64,000 nucleotides of DNA, taken from the IMG/VR virus record IMGVR_UViG_3300024259_001791, one strand, 5' to 3'. Origin of the DNA: a virus. Of this stretch, positions 2,064 through 15,590 are shown piece by piece. Made by a program: the position numbers and the translations under genes. The notes under the pieces are model-generated. The model ran no database searches, was not told where the DNA came from, and saw only the letters and a program-made list of their open reading frames with translations. Numbering within the stretch: position 1 is the first letter of the stretch; each line of letters starts with the position of its first letter.

Positions 2064-4637
2064 TTGGCCGACTTTGACACAGGTGCTTTTGTAGCCGAAG
2101 ATACATTAACCAAAAAATTACAGTTGTGCCTTAAGAACGATTGGAATGTATTGTTTATCGGTAGACACGGTGTTGGCAAATCCAGCATTATTAAGAGTTT
2201 ATGGGACAATGAAGGGCTGAACTATCGTATGTTTTCTGCCGCCACTATGGACCCGTGGGTTGACTTTCTTGGGGTGCCAGCACGGGTTGAAGATAAAAAA
2301 ACAGGCAAAGCATATTTGAAGTTGATTAAGCCACGAGAATTTGAAGATGATGAAGTAGAAGCAATTTTGTTTGATGAATTTAACAGATGTTTAACTGGTG
2401 ATACTCCTATTCAATTAGCCGATGGTTATTCGATTCCTATTAAAGATTTAGTTGATAAAAAAGAGTTTTTTGTGTATAGTTATGATCTTAAAAATAAATG
2501 TATGGCTGTTGGAAGAGGTCATTCTGCCAGAAAAACTGGCAAAAAACAAAAAGTTATAAAAGTCACATTAGATAATGGGTTATCTGTACGATGTACTGGT
2601 GATCATCCTTTTCTTTTGACGACTGGTTTATATGTCAAAGCGGGTGATCTCGAACCTGATGATGCTCTAATGGCATTATACAAAAAATATAATAAAAATG
2701 GTTATGAATTAGTTTCTTCAGTACGACCAACTCGTTGGGAATTTACTTATCATTTAGCAGATAAATATAATATTTTAACTAAAATATACAAAAAAAGCAC
2801 TGGTGGTTATCGTCATCATAAAGATAAAAATCGTTTTAATAATTCTCCGTTAAATATCGAGCGGCTTTCAAAAGAAGAACATATTTTTAAACACGCTTCA
2901 GATGGAGGAAAAACTGTACATGAAAAATATCCACTACATTATTTAAGAACGATAGGTAATGCCAATAGTCGTTCTAAAGCCGTCGCAGCATCTATAAAAA
3001 CACGCCAATCAGACGAGCAGTACAAAAAAAATAGGTCGAAAATCTCTTTAAATTTCTGGGACAAACAAAAGAAAAACGAACAGTCTCAACGAGCAAAAAA
3101 AGCATGGGCGAATGGGCAATTTGACAACATAGATAGAGTAACTGCTAATCGTAAAGCGAGACTGTCATACACGATAAAAATTCTAAAAACACAATTAGAA
3201 GAAGGCGTATTGTTGACTCCGGAATTATATGAAACAATTCGTAGTCGAATAAAAAATTTGGCAAAAAATAGTCGTGGTAAATACCTCATGAAAATCAGCA
3301 CTCTCGAAAAACACTTTGGTTCTTTTGATAATTTTGTAAATCATTTTCAAAGTGAATATTCAGAAAACAAAAATCATAGAGTGATTAAAATTGAAGATGC
3401 TGGTTATGAAGATGTTTATGACATCACTGTGGATGATTATAATAACTTCGCAGTAGGACAAGGCGTGTTCGTCCATAATAGCCCAAAAAAAATTAGAAAT
3501 GCTGTGATGGAATTGATTCAATTCAAATCTATTAATGGTAGGGAATTCAAAAACTTGAAAGTAATTTGGGCGGCTATTAACCCAGATGATGATGAAGAAC
3601 TAGATTTCGACGTTGAGAAATTGGACCCTGCTCAAAAAGATAGATTCCAAATCCACATCGAATTGAAATTTGAACCAAGTATGCCTTATTTCATACACAA
3701 GTATGGAAAAGACGTAGCAAATGGTTCTATCGAATGGTGGAAGAAACTAAAAAAAGAGCATCCTGATATCATCACTAAGGTATCCCCTCGTCGTTTGGAT
3801 TATGCTCTTGAGATTTTCTTCAAGGGTGGAAATGTTGGCTATGCATTGCCAAAGGGTTGTAATCCGGCAGAATTGACCAAAATTATCAAAGAAAGACCAA
3901 TCATAGCGAAGCTAGAATCGTTGATGGTAGGAAAAGATGATGATAAAATCAAAGAATTTCTAGAAAATGAGAATAATTTTGATTTGGCAAAACATGAGAT
4001 ATTAAGAGATAGAGTAAAGGTCGATCTTTTTGTCCCATTTATGCCTGCTGAAAAAATCAATATGCTTATCTCTCAAAGCAGTAGCGTAATGATGTGGGCC
4101 TTGAAAAACTATTCTAGGCATAAAACGATCAAAGAAGCTTTGAAAGAAATTGAAAAAGCAGACATGAACAAAGCCTTGGTCAGCCAAATCAGAAAGCGTT
4201 TCTCAGAAGATGGCATGAAACAAATCTCGTCTATGCCGGATTCGCCTGCCGTAAATGATAATAGGATAGACAATTATCAAGTAAAGAAAAAAGAAACAGT
4301 CTCTTTTGGCAAACAACTTGACGATAAAATCGATGGCGATTTCGATTCTACATTTTTCAGAATCGATGCATTCAATGTTATTAAGAATGGAATGCCAAAT
4401 GTTATGTCTAAGGATACGTCTATTAAAGTATTAACAGTGTTGGAAAAAGTGATTAAGATGACTCACAGAGACACAGTAAAGAAATGGACTGAATTACCTG
4501 CCATGATTAATACGTGCATTGATAACCTGAAAACACATGGCTATAAATTCAGTAAATTCAAAGACTCTTTCCCCGCTGTTTTGGCATATGCGGCAGTAAA
4601 GAACGGATTCTATTTTAAGAGCAGAAAGGCATCATGA
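2064..4637 (+). CDS. MoxR/dynein-related AAA+ ATPase interrupted by an intein
   Basis: Walker A GRHGVGKS, Walker B LFDEFNR, WAAINP and LDPAQKDRF motifs; paired with a downstream VWA gene. Confidence 0.85.
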   Translation: MADFDTGAFVAEDTLTKKLQLCLKNDWNVLFIGRHGVGKSSIIKSLWDNEGLNYRMFSAATMDPWVDFLGVPARVEDKKTGKAYLKLIKPREFEDDEVEAILFDEFNRCLTGDTPIQLADGYSIPIKDLVDKKEFFVYSYDLKNKCMAVGRGHSARKTGKKQKVIKVTLDNGLSVRCTGDHPFLLTTGLYVKAGDLEPDDALMALYKKYNKNGYELVSSVRPTRWEFTYHLADKYNILTKIYKKSTGGYRHHKDKNRFNNSPLNIERLSKEEHIFKHASDGGKTVHEKYPLHYLRTIGNANSRSKAVAASIKTRQSDEQYKKNRSKISLNFWDKQKKNEQSQRAKKAWANGQFDNIDRVTANRKARLSYTIKILKTQLEEGVLLTPELYETIRSRIKNLAKNSRGKYLMKISTLEKHFGSFDNFVNHFQSEYSENKNHRVIKIEDAGYEDVYDITVDDYNNFAVGQGVFVHNSPKKIRNAVMELIQFKSINGREFKNLKVIWAAINPDDDEELDFDVEKLDPAQKDRFQIHIELKFEPSMPYFIHKYGKDVANGSIEWWKKLKKEHPDIITKVSPRRLDYALEIFFKGGNVGYALPKGCNPAELTKIIKERPIIAKLESLMVGKDDDKIKEFLENENNFDLAKHEILRDRVKVDLFVPFMPAEKINMLISQSSSVMMWALKNYSRHKTIKEALKEIEKADMNKALVSQIRKRFSEDGMKQISSMPDSPAVNDNRIDNYQVKKKETVSFGKQLDDKIDGDFDSTFFRIDAFNVIKNGMPNVMSKDTSIKVLTVLEKVIKMTHRDTVKKWTELPAMINTCIDNLKTHGYKFSKFKDSFPAVLAYAAVKNGFYFKSRKAS
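2388..3479 (+). mobile_element. intein (364 aa) with HNH homing endonuclease
   Basis: begins CLTGDTPI, block B CTGDHPF, ends VYDITV..NNFAVG.GVFVHN followed by Ser(+1); internal HHKDKNRFNNSPLNI HNH motif. Confidence 0.92.
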
Positions 4638-6055
4638 CGGAAACAGTCACAGCCAAAATAGATAATGATGAATTCTTTGCTATCGCTGATAGTCTGCAAG
4701 ATAAGCATGTGATTTTCCACAAATTTTGGGAAATGGGCAAACCAGGTTTTTCAGATAAAATCCCTACTGCTGGCGTGATCTTCAATAAAGAAGGCGAAGG
4801 GATGATTTTCGAATTCAATCCCAAATTTTGGAATTATCTCGATGATTATAGCCGCCGTTTTGTTATCTGCCACGAAATGCTCCATCTTATTCTGAATCAT
4901 GGAGTTAGGATGAAAGGTGTCAGAAAAAGCAATAGACAAGCAGTTAATGTATGTCTAGACATTGTAGTAAATCATTTGCTTGTTAATAAATTCGGTTTTA
5001 ATAGACACAAGATTAAAGGCTTCGAAAAGGATATGTTGCCAGAAGGTGCTGAACCTCATGGGGATTATCGTGACTTCTGTTGGGTAGATACTGTTTTTGA
5101 TCCAAAAAGACATCCAGAAATGTTGGAGACTTTAAAGGGCAGAATTCCACCCGACAACAAAAGCTTTGAATACTATTATAATCTTCTTCCTATAACTCCT
5201 GGTGGCGGCGGTGGAGAAGGCGATAGCGGAGAAGGTCAAGGACTTGGTAGTGATTCGTTTGACGACCATGATGGATTAAAGGACACAGAGGCATTAAAAG
5301 AAATCATCGAAGAATTAAACGAAGATATGACGGAAGAAGAAAAAAGCGACCTTGAAGATATGATTGATGAACATTTTCAAGAAGAAAAATTGCCCAAGGA
5401 TGGCAGCGGTCAAGGCGATCAAACTGCGGGCGTTGGGGCTGGCGGTTTTTGGTCATTTTCTAAAGTCGATAATGTACCTACAAAGAAAAAATGGGAAACC
5501 ATTATTAAAAAGTGGATGCTAAAAGAAGTTAAGTTTGCTTCACGCGACTTAGAACAATGGGTACGAATAAACAGACGGTTCACCATATTACCAAATGATT
5601 TCTTTTTGCCTACTGAAATGGAAGTAGAAGATTTATACGAAGAAGAAGGCAAAATCAAAGTATGGTTCGTGATTGACAATTCTGGCAGTTGCTCTCATCT
5701 ATTTGATCGTTTTGCTCATGCGGCAGCATCATTGCCTAGCGACAAGTTTGAGGTACGTCTATGGTGTTTTGATACAATGATGCATGAAGTAGTTATAACA
5801 AAAGGAAATATGAAAGCCCTTGGCGGTGGTGGTACGGCTTTTGATTGTATTGAGAGTACGATACAACGAGTTATTAAGAAAGAGAAATGCGAATACCCAA
5901 AAGCAGTGTGGGTATTAACGGATTCGTATGGGAACCATGTAAACCCTCAATATCCTAAACATTGGTTCTGGTTTTTAACTACTAATTATATGGAATACAT
6001 ACCAAAAGAATGTATCGACGCTAAACAAGTCTACGACTTAAGAGACTTCGAATAA
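4634..6055 (+). CDS. DUF2201-type metallopeptidase plus VWA domain protein
   Basis: HEMLH (HExxH) motif; Gly-rich linker; C-terminal MIDAS IDNSGS, GGGGT and LTD; ATGA overlap with the ATPase. Confidence 0.85.
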   Translation: MTETVTAKIDNDEFFAIADSLQDKHVIFHKFWEMGKPGFSDKIPTAGVIFNKEGEGMIFEFNPKFWNYLDDYSRRFVICHEMLHLILNHGVRMKGVRKSNRQAVNVCLDIVVNHLLVNKFGFNRHKIKGFEKDMLPEGAEPHGDYRDFCWVDTVFDPKRHPEMLETLKGRIPPDNKSFEYYYNLLPITPGGGGGEGDSGEGQGLGSDSFDDHDGLKDTEALKEIIEELNEDMTEEEKSDLEDMIDEHFQEEKLPKDGSGQGDQTAGVGAGGFWSFSKVDNVPTKKKWETIIKKWMLKEVKFASRDLEQWVRINRRFTILPNDFFLPTEMEVEDLYEEEGKIKVWFVIDNSGSCSHLFDRFAHAAASLPSDKFEVRLWCFDTMMHEVVITKGNMKALGGGGTAFDCIESTIQRVIKKEKCEYPKAVWVLTDSYGNHVNPQYPKHWFWFLTTNYMEYIPKECIDAKQVYDLRDFE

Positions 6056-7168
6056 ATACTTATATGCCTTATCTTTTTTTCTCTCTAAAAATAATGTAGC
6101 ATTATTGTACATCCAATTATAGATACGTATTTCCTGTAAACGTCCACCATATTCCAATGCATAATTATTAGCTTTTTTGTCATTCGTTTTTTTAGAGTAG
6201 ATTTTGACCATTGACAATCCACAACTAGAACATAATTGTTTTTGTAATCCCAAAATGAAATCACCACTTCCACACGCTACAGAAAAATGTATTCCGTTAC
6301 CATTTTTACCACTTTTTTTCCAACTGCCATCTCCATCAAAGTATCCCCTCACGAAATGATGTATAAGATGTTTTGGAATATTTTTAGTAGTTTTTTGCCA
6401 AGAGATAGTATGAGATTTCTTAGGTGTAATTCCTGATCTGTATAAGTCATTTATTATCTTATTGCTATGAATATCTATCCTCGCTATGCTAGATGGTTTA
6501 CCTCTTGATATATATGTTTTGATTCTAACGGGGTAATTACCAGTAATATGTTTACTAAATTTTTCAAGGTGTTTAACATCGTTTTCATGTATACCAATGT
6601 GGAGACAATTTTTAAATACATTACCATCTGCCCCTATAAATCCTAACCAATATGCTTTTTCTTCTGTATCTATTTTTTCAAAGAAATCAAAATTGCATGT
6701 ATATTTTCTCACTCCTTTAAACTTCCATACTTTGTTTTTAACCAATGTATATCTTATACCTGATGGAGTAACGTTAAAATGCCTTGCTATATCATTGACT
6801 CTTTTCCCTTTTTTATACATCTGTACTGCTTTTTTCTTCTTTTTATCAGTCCAATGTTTTGTCTTTGGGCGACGTTTGCCTATCGTATAAAGTTCCATTT
6901 CAATAAGTCTGTTTTTGATTGCTCTTTCTCCTACTTCAAAATCTTTTGCGATTTGACTGGCGGTTTCGTAATTAAGATAGCGTTGTTTAATTTCTTGGAG
7001 TTCTTCTTCTGTGAATTTCTTTCTGCCTTTAAATGCATTATGTCTCTTTAATAGGAATTGAATAGTCTTTTTGGTACATCCGTGTTCTTGTGCCAATTTG
7101 GGTGTTCCGATGCCAGATTGGTATTCTTTGACTATATGTTTCTCTTGTTCTGTAGTAAATTTGTACAT
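6038..7168 (-). CDS. free-standing LAGLIDADG homing endonuclease with N-terminal HTH repeats
   Basis: YWLGFIGADG and FVRGYFDGDGS; ATG at 7168 behind AAGGAG (track start 7210); opposite strand to neighbours. Confidence 0.85.
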   Translation of the reverse strand: MYKFTTEQEKHIVKEYQSGIGTPKLAQEHGCTKKTIQFLLKRHNAFKGRKKFTEEELQEIKQRYLNYETASQIAKDFEVGERAIKNRLIEMELYTIGKRRPKTKHWTDKKKKKAVQMYKKGKRVNDIARHFNVTPSGIRYTLVKNKVWKFKGVRKYTCNFDFFEKIDTEEKAYWLGFIGADGNVFKNCLHIGIHENDVKHLEKFSKHITGNYPVRIKTYISRGKPSSIARIDIHSNKIINDLYRSGITPKKSHTISWQKTTKNIPKHLIHHFVRGYFDGDGSWKKSGKNGNGIHFSVACGSGDFILGLQKQLCSSCGLSMVKIYSKKTNDKKANNYALEYGGRLQEIRIYNWMYNNATLFLERKKDKAYKYLFEVS

Positions 7169-7271
7169 TTTATCTCCTTTAAGTATCCAACGCTTCTTTC
7201 TATATAGCATGTAATCTATGGAAATTCCTTCTTCTAAAAAAGCTTTAAGCGAAAAAATAAATTACTGTTGC

Positions 7272-7302: not shown

Positions 7303-7576
7303 GTACTCCCCACGCGTGTGGGGGTGAACCGGACGGATGGCCACAATTTCGACATACTCTTGAAATATTCCCCACGCGTGTGGGGGTGAACCGACGATGC
7401 CGGGATTATCTGTATCTAAAGAAGAGTATTCCCCACGTATGTGGGGGTGAACCGCTTAGACAGCTTGCAGAATAGAAGGGAGTAACGTATTCCCCACGCG
7501 TGTGGGGGTGAACCGACAATGCCAGCTTGAGCAGCATAAGCAGCAATATATTCCCCACGTAAGTGGGGGTAAAAAA
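7303..7576 (+). CRISPR. CRISPR array 1, type I-E repeat, 5 repeats / 4 spacers
   Basis: 29-bp repeats RTAYTCCCCACGYRTGTGGGGGTGAACCG at 7303, 7365, 7426, 7487 and a degenerate one at 7548; spacers 33, 32, 32, 32 bp; CCCCAC/GTGGGG hairpin. Confidence 0.97.
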
Positions 7577-7643: not shown

Positions 7644-10316
7644 ATGAGTAAAGACAAGTTAGATTTATTATTAAAATTGCCTGGTAAAAAAAGCGGTTTA
7701 AATTTGTATCCAACACTTTTTCATTGTTTTGATACTATGTTAGTTGCAAAAGAGATTATCAATTCATACCCAGAAAATGTTAAATTATGGATATCTGAAT
7801 CGCTTGGCATAAAAATCGAAGACTTAATTCCGCTTTTATCATTTATAATTGGACTACATGATATCGGAAAATTAACTCCTTCTTTTCTTCACCGTATTTT
7901 TGGAACAACAGATGACATACCGTTAAATATTAAGAAATATTTTTCTTGTGATGGGAGTAAGCCGGATTATTGGCATGCTCGTTCTAGTCAAGACATATTA
8001 AGAGAAGAAATGTGCGACGTATTTGATCAGTATGGGGAAAATATTTATGATTTTTTTAACATGATTGCCACTTTAACCGGAAATCATCATGGATCAAGTT
8101 CGCCTTTTGAGTCTGAAAAATTACAAAGAGGATCAGGTGCAGAATGGAAAGAAGTACGAAAATTATTTGTTAATTATATTCAAGATTTTTCTTGTATCGA
8201 TTTTTCAACTTTTAAAGACAATTTTTCAGATGAAATACCAAGAAAAATTTTAATTTGGATATTGGGATTTATGGTCGTGTGTGATTGGGTAGCATCCGCT
8301 TCTATCAATATCAATTCAAATTCGCCGTTTGATTATCGGTCATATATACTGGACGTGCCAAAACGAAGTAAAAAAATATCAACATTTTTATGTTCCAATC
8401 ATTTGATTTCAAACTATAAAATTTCTACTGTTGATTGGGAAACAATCATCGGATATCCGTTAAATGAATTGCAAAAAATAACTAAAGATTTTCTTGAGGA
8501 TGGGACAATAACGGCAGATTGCGCAGTGCTGGTTAAAGGCCCAACAGGTTACGGAAAAACCGAAACTAGCCATATGATTAAATATCATTTTTTGAAATCG
8601 GGAAAAGTGATTGGATGTTATACCGCGATGCCGACTCAATCTTCTAGCAACATGTTATATAAGCGTGAGAATATTTTTTTGAATAAAATAGGTGTTCTTG
8701 ATTCTAATTTAATTCATGGTCATGCTTATCTTGTAGACGATTTTACAAAAGTTGTTGCATTGTTGCCCAAAGAGGCAAGACAATGGTTAACCATGAAAAA
8801 AGTAGCGATGTTACAACCTCATGGTGTTGGCACAGTAGATCAGTTATTGTTTTCTATTTTGCCAGTAAGACATTTTTCCTTAAGGACTTTCGGTATCGCC
8901 CACAAAGTGATCACTTATGATGAGATTCACTCTTATGATTCTTTTACTGGTGCATTAAATTTAGAATCCATTTCTTGGTCTGCGAATACGGGTTGTCCTA
9001 CAGTCCTATTGTCTGCTACTATGTCTGATAAATTACAATATGACATTGTTAGTTCATATTTGGGTAAACATGATATCGATAAATTTTCTACTGGTTACGG
9101 TATTACTGTAATTAACCGTATAACAGGAAAAATTACTCATAAACCTCTACGGCTCGATAAAAAAGATGAAAAGAAAATTTCAATAGATTTTATTTCAGGA
9201 AAAAAAAGTATAGATAAAATAATATCTTCTGCAAACAACGGAGGATGTGTTTGTGTATATAAAAATACTGCGAAAACCGCAATAATAACACGCAAAAAAA
9301 TCAAAAAGACTCTCAAGAAAAACAATATTAATGATATAGAGGTTTATATTATTAGAAATAGATTTTCTCCACAAAAAAGACAAGAAATTGAAAATGATAT
9401 TGACAAAAAGTTTGGAAAAAATGGGCAACGGCCCAAAAAAGCAATTGTTATATCTACTCAAATTCTCGAACACAGTTTAGATTTGGATTTTGATGAAATA
9501 TTTACTGATTTGTGTCCGATTGATCACTTATTACAGCGTGGTGGGAGATTGCATCGATTCAATATAATTAGGCCGCTTGGAAAAGAAAAGCCACGCATGA
9601 ACATAATACTAGTTTCAAAAAATCCTGTTTATTTAAAATATTTTTGCATAAAAACTGAATTAGTTTTAAAAGATAAAAATGAAATAATTATTCCCACCGA
9701 TGTATCATCTCTTATAAATAAAGTTTATAATTTTTCGAATCATGATACGATAACTAATGACAAAAATCAAATTTTAGAATTAGATAAATTACAAAAAAAG
9801 GTAGAAAAAAGTGAGAAAAAAGACTCTCGTGAATCTACATTGCAAATAATTGGAAAACCGTCATCGTTGATAGATGATGCAAAAGAAATTATTTTAGAAC
9901 GTAATTTATATTCTATAAACGGAAAAGACATAGAAAAAGAAATAGAGTTGGGAATTACTCAAATACCACTTACTAGAAAAAAATCTTTTTCCGCTAGTTT
10001 GATTTATATTTTCAAGATCAATGGAAAGTGTTATTACGACAATTTAGGAAAACAAGAAATTGATATTAATGATTCTGAATTGGTCAAAAATTTAATAGAA
10101 AAATGCTCCATTAGTTCTATTTTCGCTTTTGAAAAGATTTTTGAAGAAAATAAATCAATTTTTAAAAGGATTAGTAATTCTAAAAAATGGGAAACTATTT
10201 GGGACGATACCTGTCTCCAATATTACCATTTAATTGTATTAGAAAATAACGAATCTAATATCGGGTGCGGAAAAAAAGTTACCTTTGATCCGGAAGTTGG
10301 AGTAGACATCGAGTGA
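7644..10316 (+). CDS. cas3: Cas3 HD nuclease-SF2 helicase
   Basis: LFHCFD, LHDIGK, NHHG and CDWVAS HD residues; GPTGYGKT, AMPTQ, GTVDQ, DEIH, LSAT, STQILEHSLDLDFD and QRGGRLHR helicase motifs; adjacent to the array. Confidence 0.95.
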   Translation: MSKDKLDLLLKLPGKKSGLNLYPTLFHCFDTMLVAKEIINSYPENVKLWISESLGIKIEDLIPLLSFIIGLHDIGKLTPSFLHRIFGTTDDIPLNIKKYFSCDGSKPDYWHARSSQDILREEMCDVFDQYGENIYDFFNMIATLTGNHHGSSSPFESEKLQRGSGAEWKEVRKLFVNYIQDFSCIDFSTFKDNFSDEIPRKILIWILGFMVVCDWVASASININSNSPFDYRSYILDVPKRSKKISTFLCSNHLISNYKISTVDWETIIGYPLNELQKITKDFLEDGTITADCAVLVKGPTGYGKTETSHMIKYHFLKSGKVIGCYTAMPTQSSSNMLYKRENIFLNKIGVLDSNLIHGHAYLVDDFTKVVALLPKEARQWLTMKKVAMLQPHGVGTVDQLLFSILPVRHFSLRTFGIAHKVITYDEIHSYDSFTGALNLESISWSANTGCPTVLLSATMSDKLQYDIVSSYLGKHDIDKFSTGYGITVINRITGKITHKPLRLDKKDEKKISIDFISGKKSIDKIISSANNGGCVCVYKNTAKTAIITRKKIKKTLKKNNINDIEVYIIRNRFSPQKRQEIENDIDKKFGKNGQRPKKAIVISTQILEHSLDLDFDEIFTDLCPIDHLLQRGGRLHRFNIIRPLGKEKPRMNIILVSKNPVYLKYFCIKTELVLKDKNEIIIPTDVSSLINKVYNFSNHDTITNDKNQILELDKLQKKVEKSEKKDSRESTLQIIGKPSSLIDDAKEIILERNLYSINGKDIEKEIELGITQIPLTRKKSFSASLIYIFKINGKCYYDNLGKQEIDINDSELVKNLIEKCSISSIFAFEKIFEENKSIFKRISNSKKWETIWDDTCLQYYHLIVLENNESNIGCGKKVTFDPEVGVDIE

Positions 10317-10350: not shown

Positions 10351-11955
10351 ATGATGAGCGATAAAGCTTACAATTTATTAGATGAACAATTTATTCGTTG
10401 TTGCTGTAATGATGGCGGTGTTAAAATGCATTCTCTTAAAAGCATTTTTGAAGATTCGCATTCTGTGATAGAAATCATTTGCAAAAATGAGTGGGAAAGA
10501 ATATCTCTTTTGAGATTGATGCAATCCGTATTGTATTGCTCATCTTTATTTTTGACATTAAAAGACTGTAAGACATTGTGGAAGCAAACCAAATTTAACG
10601 ATCAAGATGTCAAAAAAATTCATAATTATTTAGAATCGTGTCGAGAAAAATTTTATCTTATTCACCCAAAATATCCTTTTTTGCAGACTTCTGAAGATAT
10701 GGATGAAAAAACTATATCTCACATTTATTGTTTGGGATATGAAGGCGAATCTTCAATGCCATTTTTTAATCATACGACTAATAATAGCGGCCCAATTGAT
10801 GCTATTGATACTGTTGTACAGCTTATCTCTATGCAATTCATAGTCCCGGCGGGAGGTAGGGGATATATCACTTCGGAATTATCAGGTAAAAATATTTATT
10901 TAATTGGGGGTAACAATCTTTTTGAAATAATTTCATTAAATACTATTCCGTATAAAACATTTGCTGCATCATTTGGAGAGGATACGGTTGATTTAAGTGA
11001 CGATTTACCTTCGTGGGAAAGTGAAGAAAAATCTATTGCAAAAAAAATCGGTCCCATTAATTATATGACTACGACTCATAGAAAAATAAAATTGATCCCT
11101 GATGGTGGTGACACGCTGAAATTTAAGAAAATGTATTTTTCTGCAAAGAATAGAACTGAAATAGGGTATAAACAATATGAAGATACAATTATAGAACCTT
11201 TATTTTGTTACAGCCGCAAATTAGTGACTGATAAAAAAGTCGACAAAAAAATATCGAAGTGGATTCCTTTTAACGTAGACAAAAACAAATATCGAAAACA
11301 ACTTTCTTGGATTAATTGCCATTCACTAATTAATTATAAAAACCAAGATATTAAATGTCCAAAAAATATAAAACACGCCACTGAATTACTTAAAAATAGT
11401 TGTAGTTTTTCGTATCCTATTGAAGTATCAATTAGCGGCGTAAAGTCAGCTTCAATTCGCTATATATACAGGTCAAAGCTTCCGATAGAATTAACTTCAA
11501 ATTTTTCTTTGGAAGATAATATGGAAATATTTTCTGATGAAATTCGATGCTTATGCGACGAATTTATAAAAGAAGAAAAATCTTTAAAAAAAGTCATAAA
11601 CGATAACTTCGATTTTGTACAAGGTAAGAAGAAAGAAAAAAATGACAAGAAAAGTAGCAACAGTACAGTCACTGAAAAATATTTGTTTTCATATTGGTCT
11701 AATGTCAGCCAGAAATTTAAAAATATAATGGTTAAAGATATTGAAAAATCAATACTATTAAAAAAGATTACCGAATGTAGAGAAAAGAACATTAAAATAT
11801 GTCATGGTATATCAGATCGTATCTTGAAATCTATCAGAAAAGATGTTGGAAAAAGATACTTGGAGAATTGGGTAAAAGCTTCTAACTCATTGAAGAAAAA
11901 AAGAAATTATAAAAAAGGAGTTGTAAAAAATGAACGAAACAAAACAAAAAAATGA
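10351..11955 (+). CDS. cas8e: Cas8e (Cse1/CasA) large subunit
   Basis: YNLLDEQFI N-terminus, PFLQ, GNNLFEIISLN and GPINYMT..RKIKL motifs; position after cas3. Confidence 0.8.
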   Translation: MMSDKAYNLLDEQFIRCCCNDGGVKMHSLKSIFEDSHSVIEIICKNEWERISLLRLMQSVLYCSSLFLTLKDCKTLWKQTKFNDQDVKKIHNYLESCREKFYLIHPKYPFLQTSEDMDEKTISHIYCLGYEGESSMPFFNHTTNNSGPIDAIDTVVQLISMQFIVPAGGRGYITSELSGKNIYLIGGNNLFEIISLNTIPYKTFAASFGEDTVDLSDDLPSWESEEKSIAKKIGPINYMTTTHRKIKLIPDGGDTLKFKKMYFSAKNRTEIGYKQYEDTIIEPLFCYSRKLVTDKKVDKKISKWIPFNVDKNKYRKQLSWINCHSLINYKNQDIKCPKNIKHATELLKNSCSFSYPIEVSISGVKSASIRYIYRSKLPIELTSNFSLEDNMEIFSDEIRCLCDEFIKEEKSLKKVINDNFDFVQGKKKEKNDKKSSNSTVTEKYLFSYWSNVSQKFKNIMVKDIEKSILLKKITECREKNIKICHGISDRILKSIRKDVGKRYLENWVKASNSLKKKRNYKKGVVKNERNKTKK

Positions 11956-12427
11956 TTTAAAGGTTAATTTCATAAAACACTTAAATCAATTGCTTGTTAA
12001 AGATAATGTGGAAGCAATTAATTGCTATAGGCGCTGTTTGAAATTAGAGGATAAAAATGCTCGTCGGCAAACATGCGAGTATAAAGGGTGTACCCCTTAT
12101 AAATTCATGAAAGAATTTTTCTTTATTGGTGGGTTATTTATGGAATATAAAAATAATACAGATAAAGAATATAAGAATTTTGGAGATTCTTGTCGTGAAT
12201 TATATTTTGCGATGGACAAGGCTGATTTGATAAACAATTATTTTCGCAATTTATTGACTCTTGACAACATTGATACAGTTCTTATAGAAATCAAAAGATT
12301 AATTAGTCGAATGACAGAATATTCTATAAAAATTAATTATTCCAATATGTTATCTGATATAATGAATTGGCATCATAAAGATGAGTTTGTGCAAGACAAA
12401 TTAGCGCTATCTTTTTGGAAGAATTAA
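11930..12427 (+). CDS. cse2: Cse2 (Cas11/CasB) small subunit
   Basis: helical 165 aa; FGDSC, FRNLL, INYSNMLSDIMNW and VQDKLALSFW resemble Cse2; position between cas8e and cas7. Confidence 0.75.
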   Translation: MNETKQKNDLKVNFIKHLNQLLVKDNVEAINCYRRCLKLEDKNARRQTCEYKGCTPYKFMKEFFFIGGLFMEYKNNTDKEYKNFGDSCRELYFAMDKADLINNYFRNLLTLDNIDTVLIEIKRLISRMTEYSIKINYSNMLSDIMNWHHKDEFVQDKLALSFWKN

Positions 12428-12460
12428 TATAACATAATTATAATAAAGGAGAACAAAATT

Positions 12461-13633
12461 ATGACGATGGAAATCGAAAAAGATGTATTAAGAAAAAACA
12501 GAGGAAACAATTTTGGGGCACCGCACCTTGTCTTAGATATGATTTGGAACAGTCCTGGTGCTAATTTCGTTCGTGACGATATGAATCACCCCAAAAACAC
12601 ATTTTCGGCAGCATTGCTACGTGCAGTTCGAGAAAATTCCAGTAGCCCAGTTAGAATTACTGCCAGCAGAACTGAAGCTATTGATTTTATTAAGAATCAC
12701 GTTCGTGAAATACTGAAAGATAGTGTTGAAATTGATAAAGAAACATTAGATGAAAAAACAGAAGATATCTATGGCAGATATTTTCAAGGTAAGAAGAAAG
12801 AAGAAAAAAATAACAAGAAAAGTGATAACAAGAAAAGTGATAACAAGAAAGATCAACAATTTTTAGGATTTAAGGAAGAATTGCAACATATCGGGAATCA
12901 TATAGCATCGTTGTATGTCGGTAAAGACGAAAAATTGACTCAATTTATTCCTATAGATATTTGGAGAGGCAACCCGGCTTTAGTTAAGACGGAAAATGTT
13001 GATGGGACAAATCAATTACACTGTGATGGTTGTCTGCGCATGAATGGTTATAAACTTGGGTTGCCTACTGCAAAAAGCGAATTTATTGTAGCTAAAGATG
13101 ACTTATGCCTTACTCAGTCTAAAGGTTCTTTTATGGGCATTCGTTACGCACACAGTGATTCACTTTACTATGTTAGTGCTTGTATAGAACTTGTACGTCC
13201 TTTTGAATTAAGTGGTTTGCACAAAAGAGATTTTGAAGATGACTTCAAAGAATTAATTACGAATATAATTTATTCCCGTCCAAACGGCATGACCGAAATT
13301 TACAATAACGATCAGATTACGACAGAATTTATAACGGCACGAATTAGACATGGTGGACAACGTACTTATGGGTGTGGTGGAGTTTATGGAAAAACCACCC
13401 CACAAGGAGCGGAGTCTACAGGAGAGGTTGTAGATCATCTAATCTCATATTTGGATTATCAGTTGGCAAATCATGGAGATTATGAGAATAATAATGTAGA
13501 ATGTTTTTATGTTCCTTTATGGAATTGGAAAACACAATATCCAGATCGTTGGGAATCTTGTAAAAATCATCCTTCTTTCGTGGAAAAACTAGCGAAAACA
13601 AGTATCGAAGCAATTGATAAACATTTAGGATAA
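12461..13633 (+). CDS. cas7: divergent Cas7e (CasC)
   Basis: RDDMNHPK, LLRAVR, EFIVAKDDL and LYYVSAC motifs; size and position. Confidence 0.7.
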   Translation: MTMEIEKDVLRKNRGNNFGAPHLVLDMIWNSPGANFVRDDMNHPKNTFSAALLRAVRENSSSPVRITASRTEAIDFIKNHVREILKDSVEIDKETLDEKTEDIYGRYFQGKKKEEKNNKKSDNKKSDNKKDQQFLGFKEELQHIGNHIASLYVGKDEKLTQFIPIDIWRGNPALVKTENVDGTNQLHCDGCLRMNGYKLGLPTAKSEFIVAKDDLCLTQSKGSFMGIRYAHSDSLYYVSACIELVRPFELSGLHKRDFEDDFKELITNIIYSRPNGMTEIYNNDQITTEFITARIRHGGQRTYGCGGVYGKTTPQGAESTGEVVDHLISYLDYQLANHGDYENNNVECFYVPLWNWKTQYPDRWESCKNHPSFVEKLAKTSIEAIDKHLG

Positions 13634-13638
13634 TAATA

Positions 13639-14994
13639 ATGGCAGGAATTATATTAAAGATGGAAGGACAAAGACAATCGTATGGTATTCAAAGTCATTA
13701 CAGCGTTCGTGACACCGAAAAATTTCCAACGAAATCAGCAGTTGTGAACATGGTACGTGCCGCTGCTGGTATTGGTCGAACAAATGAGAAATTGATTGAA
13801 TTGAATGATACAAAAATGACGGTTAGGATTGATTATCCAGGTGAATATAAAGAAGATTTTAGAACAGCACAATTTGAAGATCGCCTAACAAGAGGAGAAA
13901 AACCATCAAAAAATAAAACTATAGTTCAATATAAACACTATTTATGCGATGCGAGTTTTTTAGTGTTATTAGATTCACCTGATTCGGAATTGATAGAGTG
14001 GGTAGCTGGTGTTGTTAAGAGTCCAGAATGGTATCCATATCTTGGAAGGAGAGAATACGAACCATCTGCACCTATATATGTGAGGCATTGGTCTGATAAG
14101 TCTATCGGAAAGGATATCCTAGAAAAAGAACCGTGGTTTTATCGTGGTGATGTTAAAAAACCTGAAAAATTGGAATATATTCAAGAAATACCAAACAATG
14201 ATAAAGATGGTATTTTAATCAAGGATGTAATGATTAATTCTGCCGATAGAATTTTTAGTTATCGAAAAATTAAATCAGTTGAAAAGCCATTAAATGCTGA
14301 ATTGATTAAAGAAACTCCTAGTTTTACGGTATCTCATGGACATATGCCCGCTATCAAAAAAAGAAAAAACCAAATTATTTTCGAGAACAAATGTGATCAA
14401 AATGCAGATGAATACATTACTATTTTAAAATTTGAAAATGAAAATTATGTTTATCAATTCGCAAATCATCCTCATGACTTTTTTCATATAATTTGTAAGT
14501 CTCTCCCGTCTATAGATGATGGAGGAAAGGGAAGATGTTTATTCTCTGTACAAGAATCTCATATAATAGTTAAAACTGAAAAAAAACCTGATTGGTCTTT
14601 TTTAAACGAATACAATAAAGGAATTATAAAGTGTTGTATTCATCCTGTAATATATGACAAATGGGATCAATTAAATCATCTCCGTTGTTGGTTACGGTAT
14701 AATCCAGTTAAAAGACTAGACGGAAAAAATGTATTATTAAAAACTGAACGAGAACGATTGGAATGGTTGAATAAAAGAAGTAAAAATTATGGTTTGAAGA
14801 TTTTGAATTGTAATATATCACATACTGAAAAAGTCGAAGGTAAACAGCATAATATTATTGTCGCTGATGTAGAATTAGAAATTAAAGTTGTTGACAAAGA
14901 GTTGTTTGTTGAAGCATGTAAAAATGGTATCGGTAGAGAGAAAAATGCAGGATGTGGTTTATTGTTATTCGAAAATATGATTTTTAGGTCGTAA
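13639..14994 (+). CDS. Cas5e-Cas6e fusion protein
   Basis: N-half: LKMEGQRQSYG, RDTEKFPTKSAVV and PYLGRR (Cas5e); C-half: RYNPVKR, EWLNKR and G-rich loop GIGREKNAGCGLL (Cas6e); no stop between them. Confidence 0.85.
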   Translation: MAGIILKMEGQRQSYGIQSHYSVRDTEKFPTKSAVVNMVRAAAGIGRTNEKLIELNDTKMTVRIDYPGEYKEDFRTAQFEDRLTRGEKPSKNKTIVQYKHYLCDASFLVLLDSPDSELIEWVAGVVKSPEWYPYLGRREYEPSAPIYVRHWSDKSIGKDILEKEPWFYRGDVKKPEKLEYIQEIPNNDKDGILIKDVMINSADRIFSYRKIKSVEKPLNAELIKETPSFTVSHGHMPAIKKRKNQIIFENKCDQNADEYITILKFENENYVYQFANHPHDFFHIICKSLPSIDDGGKGRCLFSVQESHIIVKTEKKPDWSFLNEYNKGIIKCCIHPVIYDKWDQLNHLRCWLRYNPVKRLDGKNVLLKTERERLEWLNKRSKNYGLKILNCNISHTEKVEGKQHNIIVADVELEIKVVDKELFVEACKNGIGREKNAGCGLLLFENMIFRS

Positions 14995-15067: not shown

Positions 15068-15590
15068 GTACTCCCCACGCGTGTGGGGGTGAACCGGCCT
15101 CGTGCCCTCTGAGACACTGTTGTATAGACGTACTCCCCACGCGTGTGGGGGTGAACCGACTACAGAAAAGATATGAACATATCATAGAACGTACTCCCCA
15201 CGCGTGTGGGGGTGAACCGATTGGAGACAAGATAGTTTGCAGAAACGCACTGGTACTCCCCACGCGTGTGGGGGTGAACCGGAATAGTCAATTTTTTGCG
15301 GAAAGAATACATCACGTACTCCCCACGCGTGTGGGGGTGAACCGGTGACGGGTTTTGTATTATGTTTGCAATAGTTGTACTCCCCACGCGTGTGGGGGTG
15401 AACCAGAGGAATTTGTAGACAAGTGAGGCGATCATAAGTATTCCCCACGCATTGTGGGGGTGAACCTGCTGCTGGACAAACTGTATTCAGAGGCGTACCA
15501 AATTCCCCACGCATGTGGGGGTGAACCGCAATACCGCCACGCCAGTAACTCTACTATTTGGTATTTCCCCACTCGTGTGGGGGTGAACAT
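15068..15590 (+). CRISPR. CRISPR array 2, type I-E repeat, 9 repeats / 8 spacers
   Basis: GTACTCCCCACGCGTGTGGGGGTGAACCG at 15068, 15130, 15191, 15253, 15316; variants at 15377, 15438, 15500, 15561; spacers 32-34 bp; degeneration toward the 3' end. Confidence 0.98.

What the first reader, a model, noticed from the sequence alone, without database searches (positions are those of the whole stretch)
13639..14994. Single-polypeptide Cas5e-Cas6e fusion
Seen: the 451-aa ORF has Cas5e motifs in about the first 215 aa and Cas6e motifs, including the terminal G-rich loop GIGREKNAGCGLL, in about the last 190 aa, joined by a roughly 40-aa linker without a stop. Established: in canonical Cascade, Cas5 caps the crRNA 5' handle and Cas6 holds the 3' hairpin at the opposite end of the Cas7 backbone. 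Inference: a short tether cannot easily span both ends. The Cas6 may therefore release after processing, act in trans or on the next repeat, or Cascade geometry may be altered.
Basis: partly seen in the sequence, partly recalled or inferred. Interest (0 to 1): 0.8.

Follow-up and report, generated by a model that had tools for sequence, protein, structure and literature searches.

The report
Fused Cas5e-Cas6e in phage CRISPR
A marine phage-like element carries a type I-E CRISPR system in which the two proteins that normally hold opposite ends of the guide RNA are made as one chain; this is real and rare, but a comparable fusion (Csb2) is already known from subtype I-G.

Summary
ORF 13639-14994 (+) encodes 451 aa with no stop. 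Residues 1-226 are a Cas5e domain and residues 259-451 a Cas6e domain, shown by Pfam, NCBIfam, PDB sequence hits and AlphaFold2 plus Foldseek. About 30 poorly ordered residues join them.

Contigs from four other seawater or marine metagenomes match the junction with no differences, so a lost stop or frameshift artefact is excluded.

The gene ends a cas3-cas8e-cse2-cas7 operon that lacks cas1 and cas2. Two arrays with canonical 29-nt repeats and 32-34-nt spacers flank it.

I found five more Cas5e-Cas6e fusions, all in loci without cas1 directly downstream; one is followed by tniQ. The spacing between the domains ranges from about 4 to 77 residues. The tether therefore probably does not span Cascade.

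The best-supported mechanism is inferred, not shown. Each chain reads one whole repeat: the hairpin plus the 5' handle immediately after it. Each Cascade would then take its Cas5 and Cas6 domains from two different chains.

A Cas5-Cas6 fusion is already the defining subunit (Csb2) of subtype I-G, so this is a new variant of a known kind. The earlier scan notes I was shown held no other I-E case. Interest is moderate.

The parts
7303..7576 (+). CRISPR array 1: 5 repeats and 4 spacers of 32-33 nt. The last repeat is degenerate in the handle part. An AT-rich leader lies upstream.
7644..10316 (+). cas3 (HD nuclease plus helicase), 890 aa
   Evidence: Cas3_HD 5.9e-27, Cas3-like_C_2 1.9e-28; cas3_core 2.3e-50
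10351..11955 (+). cas8e/cse1 (large subunit), 534 aa
   Evidence: CRISPR_Cse1 2.4e-38
11930..12427 (+). cse2/cas11e (small subunit), 165 aa
   Evidence: CRISPR_Cse2 1.8e-10; casB_cse2 32.5 bits, above its cut-off of 28.5
12461..13633 (+). Very divergent cas7e, 390 aa
   Evidence: Pfam Cas_CT1975 only E 0.0012, below cut-off. No PDB sequence hit. Best structural look-alike in the ESM Atlas is I-E Cas7, TM 0.55.
13639..14994 (+). cas5e-cas6e fusion gene, 451 aa plus stop
13639..14316 (+). Cas5e domain (aa 1-226)
   Evidence: PF09704 aa 4-209. TIGR01868 above cut-off. PDB Cas5e 5u07_N at 3.4e-20 and 4qyz_J at 1e-10. AF2 pLDDT mostly above 90. Standalone Cas5e C-termini mostly align to aa 218-252, more than half of them to 218-233.
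14317..14412 (+). Inter-domain linker (aa 227-258). It includes the basic stretch AIKKRKNQ, the in-frame ATG for M236 (14344-14346), and an A7-G-A6 run (14356-14369).
   Evidence: pLDDT below 50 for aa 229-244 and low to aa 258. Sequence. No differences in independent contigs. No Shine-Dalgarno motif before M236.
14413..14991 (+). Cas6e domain (aa 259-451). H279 is at 14473-14475, F282 lies in the canonical catalytic-His column, H283 is at 14485-14487, and the G-rich loop is at 14926-14964.
15068..15590 (+). CRISPR array 2: 9 repeats, one with a 1-nt insertion and the last ones degenerate; spacers of 32-34 nt. It starts 73 nt after the stop codon of the fusion gene.
   Evidence: Spacer content next to the first repeat differs between metagenome runs (table 5c).

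Best explanation
The gene is a genuine translational fusion of Cas5e (N-terminal) and Cas6e (C-terminal). It is the last gene of an otherwise complete type I-E interference module that lacks an adaptation module, on a phage-like marine element.

Origin. It most likely arose by read-through of two adjacent genes. In ordinary I-E operons cas5e and cas6e abut or overlap.

Inferred mechanism. The Cas6e domain binds the repeat hairpin (CCCCACGCGTGTGGGG) and cuts at its 3' base. The Cas5e domain caps the 8-nt handle GUGAACCG. In the precursor RNA that handle lies immediately 3' of the same hairpin. One chain can therefore read one whole repeat. Binding of the Cas6 domain to the hairpin would deliver the Cas5 domain to the start of the next crRNA, where Cas7, Cse2 and Cas8e assemble.

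Consequence. Each finished Cascade takes its tail (Cas5 domain) and its head (Cas6 domain) from two different chains. The spare domain is either idle or still holds the neighbouring crRNA, which would tether adjacent Cascades. The linker does not need to span the complex.

What is shown and what is inferred. Shown: the fusion is real, both folds are present, the locus composition, the recurrence of such fusions, and the variable linker length. Inferred: the arrangement in trans, catalytic activity, and any selective advantage such as stoichiometric, co-localised assembly in a mobile element.
For: - Real fusion with both domains.
- Canonical I-E RNA geometry: 29-nt repeats, a period of 61-63 nt and 32-34-nt spacers, so the usual six-Cas7 length is expected.
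- Five other Cas5e-Cas6e fusions exist: P0057, P0068, P0082 and P0129, plus L008.
- The distance from the last conserved Cas5 Arg to the Cas6 Tyr2 equivalent is 49, 24, 58, 4 and 77 aa. Standalone Cas5e already has a median tail of 18 aa after that Arg. Net linkers therefore run from about 0 to about 59 aa and are not conserved, which argues against a tether selected to span head to tail.
- The ancestral Cas6e Met1 is replaced in all five full-length fusions (E, G, L, I, L), and no Shine-Dalgarno motif precedes M236. Neighbouring genes have AGGAG-type sites.
- No separate cas5e or cas6e exists in the window.
- From established knowledge: Cas6e cuts at the hairpin base and the next 8 nt form the following crRNA's 5' handle; Cas5e and Cas6e occur 1:1 per Cascade.
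- Type I-G Csb2 shows that a Cas5-Cas6 fusion can process pre-crRNA and form a working effector.
Against: - No experiment or multimer model supports the arrangement in trans.
- In this protein the canonical catalytic-His column holds F282. His lies one residue later (H283) and three earlier (H279), so cleavage activity is not assured.
- Cas7 is very divergent, so an altered, more curved backbone cannot be excluded.
- In I-G the Cas5-like domain was not seen at the 5' handle. A fused Cas5 domain therefore need not cap the handle.
- Tethered neighbouring Cascades might hinder target search.
Confidence: 0.5

Rival explanations
1. Cis bridging. One chain occupies both ends of the same Cascade. Either the roughly 30-aa linker runs along the complex, or the divergent Cas7 gives a strongly curved backbone, as in I-F and I-G, that brings head and tail close together.
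For: - This protein has a linker with aa 229-244 at pLDDT below 50 and low confidence to aa 258.
- Cas7 is highly divergent.
- I-G Cascade, which has the Csb2 fusion, shows a strikingly curved backbone.
- A 1:1 stoichiometry is preserved.
Against: - Thirty residues reach roughly 100 Angstrom only when fully extended. Head and tail of I-E Cascade are separated by the whole 32-nt guide. This distance is from my own knowledge of the Cascade structures and was not measured here.
- Other I-E fusions have net linkers of about 0-6 aa (P0082, P0057).
- Spacer length is canonical.
Confidence: 0.12
2. Csb2-like use. One chain per complex sits at the 3' hairpin through its Cas6 domain. The Cas5 domain does not cap the 5' handle and has another or no role.
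For: For type I-G Csb2 the Cas6 domain stays on the hairpin, the 5' handle contacts only Cas7.1, and the Cas5-like domain's role 'remains elusive'.
Against: - The Cas5 domain here is a well-conserved Cas5e (equivalog score above cut-off; E 3.4e-20 to T. fusca Cas5e in Cascade; pLDDT above 90).
- The locus keeps Cas8e and Cse2. In I-E, Cas8e docks beside Cas5e at the tail (established knowledge).
Confidence: 0.1
3. One gene, separate proteins. Separate Cas5e and Cas6e polypeptides are produced by internal initiation at M236, by proteolysis of the exposed linker, or by slippage on the A7-G-A6 run, which would give a Cas5-only product.
For: - An in-frame ATG (M236) lies 23 codons before the Cas6 domain. 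It would give a 216-aa product of typical Cas6e size.
- The linker is predicted to be disordered.
- The A7-G-A6 run lies at 14356-14369. By my own reading of that sequence, both alternative frames stop soon after it.
Against: - No Shine-Dalgarno motif precedes M236, whereas neighbouring genes have one.
- The ancestral Met1 is lost in all five fusions, and no start codon or slippery run is conserved among them.
- P0082 has essentially no linker to cleave.
Confidence: 0.12
4. The fusion is an assembly or sequencing artefact, or a decaying and non-functional gene.
For: - The only near copy in the protein databases is a 325-aa truncated form, P0002.
- The locus lacks cas1 and cas2.
- The catalytic-His column is not His.
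Against: - The truncation of P0002 comes from an unrelated 108-nt contig end, not from a mutation.
- The junction is identical in contigs from four independent runs, and the region was found in 20 runs from 19 studies.
- Both domains model confidently.
- All other interference genes are intact.
- Spacer content varies between samples.
Confidence: 0.04

Closest known systems
Canonical type I-E Cascade (E. coli CasA-E; T. fusca and T. thermophilus Cse)
   Same: - Same gene set and order: cas3, cse1, cse2, cas7, cas5e, cas6e.
- Same 29-nt repeat with a GC hairpin and an 8-nt handle ending in AACCG.
- Spacers of 32-33 nt.
- Cas5e and Cas6e family membership by sequence and fold.
   Different: - Cas5e and Cas6e form one polypeptide.
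- No cas1 or cas2.
- Two short arrays flank the operon.
- Cas7 is very divergent.
- The element is phage-like, not a chromosome.
Type I-G (formerly I-U) Csb2, also called GSU0054: natural Cas5-Cas6 fusion (Makarova 2011, PMC3150331; Shangguan et al. 2022, bioRxiv 10.1101/2022.08.08.503147)
   Same: - Same domain order: Cas5-like N-terminal, a linker, then a Cas6 C-terminal domain.
- In Csb2 the Cas6 domain is the pre-crRNA nuclease with a catalytic His and stays on the 3' hairpin.
- Neither half of Csb2 alone forms the complex.
- The same unresolved question applies: where does the Cas5 domain sit?
   Different: - No NCBIfam family other than Cas5e, casE and the generic Cas5 domain matched at E up to 0.01.
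- The operon has Cas8e and Cse2. I-G has Cas8g and no Cas11.
- The fusion here is evidently younger, because both halves are still ordinary I-E families. It is most likely independent of Csb2.
Type I-C Cas5d (Cas5c)
   Same: One protein both processes the repeat and caps the 5' handle of the downstream crRNA (discussion). The 'one chain reads one repeat' model proposed here makes the fusion a functional analogue.
   Different: I-C achieves this with a single catalytic Cas5 domain and has no Cas6. Here two separate domains are retained.
Other effector-subunit fusions: Cas5-HNH in I-E, Cas8-Cas5 in I-F3 and I-C, Cas5-Cas3 in I-B (Altae-Tran et al. 2023, PMC10910872)
   Same: These are rare fusions inside Cascade genes, often in systems that lack some modules and sit on mobile elements. 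Cas5-HNH relatives were hit in my searches.
   Different: Those fusions join neighbouring subunits or add a nuclease. None joins the two subunits that sit at opposite ends of the crRNA. A Cas5e-Cas6e fusion is not among the fusions named in the passages of that paper returned by my term search.

Membership tests
Type I-E CRISPR-Cas interference module | Signature large subunit Cse1/Cas8e and small subunit Cse2/Cas11e | tested here: met
   PF09481 at 2.4e-38. PF09485 at 1.8e-10. casB_cse2 above cut-off.
Type I-E CRISPR-Cas interference module | Cas3 with HD nuclease and helicase | tested here: met
   Cas3_HD, Cas3-like_C_2 and cas3_core. Catalytic residues were not inspected.
Type I-E CRISPR-Cas interference module | Cas7e backbone subunit | tested here: inconclusive
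   Pfam E 0.0012, below cut-off. No PDB sequence hit. Atlas structural best match is I-E Cas7 at TM 0.55.
Type I-E CRISPR-Cas interference module | About 29-nt repeat with a stem-loop and an 8-nt 3' part; spacers of about 32 nt | tested here: met
Type I-E CRISPR-Cas (complete system) | cas1-cas2 adaptation genes after cas6e | tested here: not met
   No Pfam family in the downstream ORFs. No Cas1e-like sequence in the window by tblastn (best E 2.3). In the comparison sample, 52 of 61 unfused loci have cas1 directly downstream.
Cas5e (CasD) | Sequence membership above the curated cut-off | tested here: met
   TIGR01868 at 105.6 bits against 68.95. PDB 5u07_N at 3.4e-20.
Cas6e (CasE/Cse3) endoribonuclease | Double ferredoxin-like Cas6e fold with C-terminal G-rich loop | tested here: met
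   PF08798 at 67.7 bits against 25. Foldseek to Cse3 at E 2.5e-15, TM 0.70-0.79. GIGREKNAGCG lies in the conserved column. NCBIfam casE is below its cut-off.
Cas6e (CasE/Cse3) endoribonuclease | Catalytic His (T. thermophilus H26, E. coli H20) | tested here: inconclusive
   In alignment A4 the His column holds F282. H283 is adjacent, and H279 lies in the Tyr23 column. The four other fusions have His in the column.
Csb2 (type I-G Cas5-Cas6 fusion) | Cas5-like N-terminal domain fused to a Cas6-like C-terminal domain | tested here: met
   The architecture is the same.
Csb2 (type I-G Cas5-Cas6 fusion) | Sequence membership in the Csb2 family and a I-G operon (Cas8g/Csx17, Csb1, no Cas11) | tested here: not met
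   NCBIfam returned only I-E Cas5e, casE and the generic Cas5 domain at E up to 0.01. Whether that release contains a Csb2 model was not checked. The operon has Cse1 and Cse2.

The most novel reading that the evidence does not exclude
Fused Cas5e-Cas6e acts as a 'repeat reader' that nucleates Cascade assembly on the precursor transcript. After cleavage it leaves neighbouring Cascades covalently tethered head to tail, forming chains whose length follows the number of repeats in the array. This would be an assembly mode not described for any type I system. It would be favoured in mobile-element I-E systems that lack an adaptation module, including a TniQ-linked one.
Probability: 0.3. Interest if true: 0.7.

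Novelty: new variant of a known kind. Interest (0 to 1): 0.5.

Why it matters
Type I-E Cascade is the best-understood class 1 effector. Its Cas5e and Cas6e sit at opposite ends of the guide RNA.

A natural I-E fusion that recurs in several lineages shows that this separation is not an obstacle. It also offers a tractable way to ask how a fused Cas5-Cas6 subunit is arranged, a question still open for type I-G Csb2.

In this small sample the fusions occur only in loci without cas1 directly downstream (0 of 5, against 52 of 61 unfused loci with cas1). Their contexts are a phage-like element, a locus next to tniQ, and a MAG in which no Cas1 was detected. The fusion may therefore be part of how mobile elements streamline Cascade.

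Fewer genes with fixed 1:1 stoichiometry are also of practical interest for compact Cascade tools.

Tried and rejected
- **Close relatives.** The word-based protein search found only the truncated copy P0002. IMG/VR holds no relative. The only hit in the phage collection, MT835722, is an ordinary high-GC I-E locus with separate genes.
- **P0057's relatives in reference genomes.** Five of the six loci have cas5e and cas6e in different frames. The long ORFs in these high-GC loci are misleading.
- **One origin or several.** The fusions are scattered on a Cas5 tree (4 changes). The AU test does not reject a single clade (p 0.22), so this is undecided.
- **Full-length MSA with standalone Cas6e rows.** MAFFT aligned those rows onto the Cas5 half. 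I therefore folded the C-terminal half and the full length separately. The full-length pTM of 0.58 gives no reliable orientation between the domains.
- **Spacer targets.** Two leader-proximal spacers, with every sixth base free, have no match in IMG/VR, and no spacer matches elsewhere in the window.
- **Repeat core search.** The 25-nt repeat core is widespread in metagenomes and does not identify a host. None of about 22 loci with both genes is fused.
- **RNA evidence.** No RNA holder is listed for this stretch, so nothing can be said about expression.
- **Head-to-tail distance.** I could not measure the Cas5e-to-Cas6e distance in a solved Cascade, because no coordinates were available.
- **Literature.** Searches found no description of a natural I-E Cas5e-Cas6e fusion. 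Subscription-only papers were not searched.

Full report
**1. Observation**

The + strand ORF 13639-14994 translates to 451 residues without a stop.
- Pfam places Cas5 (PF09704) on aa 4-209 (E 3e-29) and the Cas6e family (PF08798) on aa 275-443 (E 2.3e-18). Both are above their gathering scores.
- The NCBIfam Cas5e equivalog model scores 105.6 bits against a cut-off of 68.95. The casE model matches only the last 85 residues and stays below its cut-off.
- Against PDB sequences, the N-terminal half hits Cas5e of T. fusca and E. coli Cascade (3.4e-20 and 1e-10). The C-terminal half hits T. thermophilus Cse3 (9e-9).
- An AlphaFold2 model of aa 236-451 was built on 28 Cas6e sequences taken from fetched loci and from the other fusions. 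It has pLDDT 84.4 and pTM 0.78.
- The best Foldseek matches of that model are Cse3-RNA complexes (E 2.5e-15, TM 0.70-0.79), followed by E. coli Cas6e inside Cascade.
- The G-rich loop GIGREKNAGCG sits in the conserved column of the Cas6e alignment.

**2. Domain boundaries and linker**

- In the full-length model (pLDDT 80.3, pTM 0.58) the Cas5 domain is confident up to about aa 226. Residues 229-244 fall below pLDDT 50, and 245-258 are low. The Cas6 domain starts with a strand at 259-265.
- Met1-Tyr2 of standalone Cas6e aligns with E258-Y259.
- C-termini of standalone Cas5e align mostly to aa 218-252, more than half of them to 218-233.

**3. Artefact test**

- The only near-identical database protein, P0002, has 325 aa, which at first suggested a stop. 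Its contig (L004) is 100% identical to window 11770-14602. It then runs into 108 unrelated bases at the contig end, so the truncation is a contig-end artefact.
- The stretch is held by 20 public runs from 19 seawater or marine studies.
- Contigs from four runs that are not flagged as possible sources cover the junction with no substitutions or indels: 14072-14602, 14075-14592, 13914-14383 and 14372-14554.
- These are contigs, not raw reads, so rare variants would be missed. A lost stop or frameshift in the consensus sequence is excluded.

**4. Context**

- The gene ends an operon of cas3 (7644-10316), cse1 (10351-11955), cse2 (11930-12427) and a very divergent cas7 (12461-13633).
- Two arrays on the same strand flank the operon, at 7303-7576 and 15068-15590. 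They have the I-E type repeat GTACTCCCCACGCGTGTGGGGGTGAACCG and spacers of 32-34 nt.
- No cas1 or cas2 was found. No second cas5e or cas6e is present in the window.
- The window looks like a phage. Almost all genes lie on one strand and G+C is about 36%. PHROG or Pfam hits include Rnl2-type RNA ligase, PARP, ADP-ribosylglycohydrolase, an intein-containing ATPase, homing endonucleases and a radical SAM enzyme.
- No structural genes lie in the window, so 'phage-like element' is the safe wording. No whole genome is held.
- Spacers next to the first repeat of array 2 differ between metagenome runs (table 5c).

**5. Is the fusion unique?**

No, but it is rare.
- An exhaustive HMMER search of 1.84 billion cluster representatives returned 2288 hits at E up to 0.001. 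Among the best 150, four other proteins carry both domains: P0057 (414 aa), P0068 (460 aa), P0082 (389 aa) and P0129 (477 aa). They are 24-27% identical to the query.
- A sixth case is in an Actinomycetota MAG (L008). The C-terminal part of Cas5 and a full Cas6e lie in one frame there. The N-terminal part of Cas5 is split over three frames, which means either sequencing errors or decay.
- None of 36 Cas6e genes found in 401 Bacillota genomes lies in an open frame long enough for a fusion, apart from a 378-aa frame at a high-GC locus whose genes are separate.
- None of about 22 metagenome loci with the same repeat core is fused.
- Fusions are scattered on a Cas5 tree, but a single origin is not rejected (AU p 0.22).
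- A fusion can arise easily. In a Limosilactobacillus fermentum plasmid, cas5e and cas6e lie in the same frame, separated only by a stop and four codons.

**6. Association with loss of adaptation genes**

- cas1 lies directly downstream of cas6e in 52 of 61 distinct unfused loci. The Cas1 reference sequences were checked by Pfam.
- cas1 is absent in all four fusion loci with DNA (window, L001, L002, L008). It is also absent from the P0129 contig, judged by its listed Pfam families.
- Zero of 5 against 52 of 61 gives a hypergeometric p of about 2e-4. The loci are not independent samples, so this is only indicative.
- L008 is followed directly by an array of at least 39 repeats, and no Cas1 was detected in its 8.6-Mb MAG.
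- In L001 the fusion is followed by a 561-aa TniQ gene.

**7. Mechanism**

Established knowledge of I-E:
- Cas6e binds the repeat hairpin, cuts at its 3' base and stays on the product as the head of Cascade.
- The next 8 nt become the 5' handle of the following crRNA, which Cas5e caps at the tail.
- Each is present once per complex.

Two observations bear on how a fused protein fits this scheme.
- First, spacer and repeat lengths are canonical. A shortened complex is therefore not indicated, although the divergent Cas7 leaves room for altered curvature.
- Second, the spacing between the last conserved Cas5 Arg and the Cas6 Tyr2 equivalent is 49, 24, 58, 4 and 77 residues in the five full-length fusions. 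Standalone Cas5e already has a median of 18 residues after that Arg. Net linkers of about 0-6 residues (P0082, P0057) cannot bridge the two ends of a canonical Cascade.

A solution common to all fusions must therefore not depend on the tether. The simplest one is that each chain binds the two adjacent halves of one repeat. Each Cascade would then receive its Cas5 and Cas6 domains from different chains. After cleavage the spare domain would either be idle or keep neighbouring complexes tethered. This is inference (confidence about 0.5).

Against separate products:
- The ancestral Cas6e Met1 is replaced in all five full-length fusions.
- M236 has no Shine-Dalgarno motif, unlike the neighbouring genes.

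One caveat for this protein concerns catalysis. The canonical catalytic-His column holds F282, with H283 next to it and H279 in the Tyr23 column. Cleavage needs an experimental test.

**8. Comparison with known systems**

- A Cas5-Cas6 fusion is not new as an architecture. GSU0054, also called Csb2, of subtype I-G (formerly I-U) was predicted to be such a fusion in 2011.
- It has been characterised since then. Its C-terminal Cas6 domain cleaves pre-crRNA and stays on the 3' hairpin. Neither half alone forms the complex. The Cas5-like domain's role 'remains elusive', and the 5' handle contacts only Cas7.1.
- The present protein is not a Csb2 family member. It is a junction of ordinary Cas5e and Cas6e in an operon with Cse1 and Cse2.
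- I found no description of an I-E Cas5e-Cas6e fusion in the searchable literature. It is not among the fusions named in the passages returned by my term search of the large 2023 survey of rare CRISPR variants.

**9. Verdict**

- This is a new variant of a known kind, of moderate interest. Its value is as a natural, tractable test case for how fused Cas5-Cas6 subunits are arranged, and as a possible hallmark of streamlined I-E systems carried by mobile elements.

Noticed in passing
L001:250-3419 (Logan contig SRR17068071_677203): A 460-aa Cas5e-Cas6e fusion (P0068) is followed 100 nt later, on the same strand, by a 561-aa TniQ-domain gene (PF06527, 4.2e-15). The published type I-E CAST is a TnsBC element described as lacking TniQ. 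A TniQ-linked I-E Cascade would therefore be a different association. The contig is only 3.5 kb, and no array or tns genes are visible.
   Followed up: partly
window 15068-15590 (array 2): Contigs from different seawater runs carry different spacers next to the first repeat, and the same spacers in a different order (table 5c). No cas1 or cas2 is present in the window. Spacer turnover may therefore rely on a host adaptation module or on recombination.
   Followed up: no
window 12461-13633: Cas7 is extremely divergent. Pfam gives only E 0.0012, there is no PDB sequence hit, and the Atlas structural match to I-E Cas7 is TM 0.55. This could mean altered backbone geometry.
   Followed up: partly
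L008:8001-12333 (Actinomycetota MAG, contig CAVZTC010000010.1): This I-E locus has the Cas5 C-terminal part and Cas6e in one frame, while the Cas5 N-terminal part is split over three frames. An array of at least 39 repeats follows directly, and no Cas1 was detected in the 8.6-Mb MAG.
   Followed up: partly
L082, L088, L096, L101, L143, L155, L156, L157: Metagenome loci with the same 25-nt repeat core carry Cas5e ORFs of 369-416 aa, with about 130-170 extra C-terminal residues. They may be Cas5-HNH-type I-E variants like P0051, P0062 and P0113. This was not checked.
   Followed up: no
L163:3001-4377 (Limosilactobacillus fermentum plasmid CP033372.1): Annotated cas5e and cas6e lie in the same reading frame, separated by one stop codon and four codons. 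One substitution would fuse them.
   Followed up: no
L010 and L011 (Streptomycetaceae), L006 (Mycobacteriaceae): These are the nearest unfused relatives of fusion P0057, and they also lack cas1 directly downstream of cas6e. L010 has a TrwC relaxase and a Fic protein nearby, which suggests I-E modules without adaptation genes on conjugative elements.
   Followed up: partly
window 2064-4637 and 6038-7210 (-): An ATPase gene carries an intein (PF14890, 9.2e-23). Immediately upstream of array 1 lies the only long minus-strand gene in this part of the window, which encodes HTH and LAGLIDADG domains.
   Followed up: no
L004:2834-2941: The ENA contig k141_1770489 ends in 108 nt unrelated to the window, starting after a T-rich run. 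This looks like a chimeric contig end, and it created the truncated 325-aa database protein P0002.
   Followed up: yes
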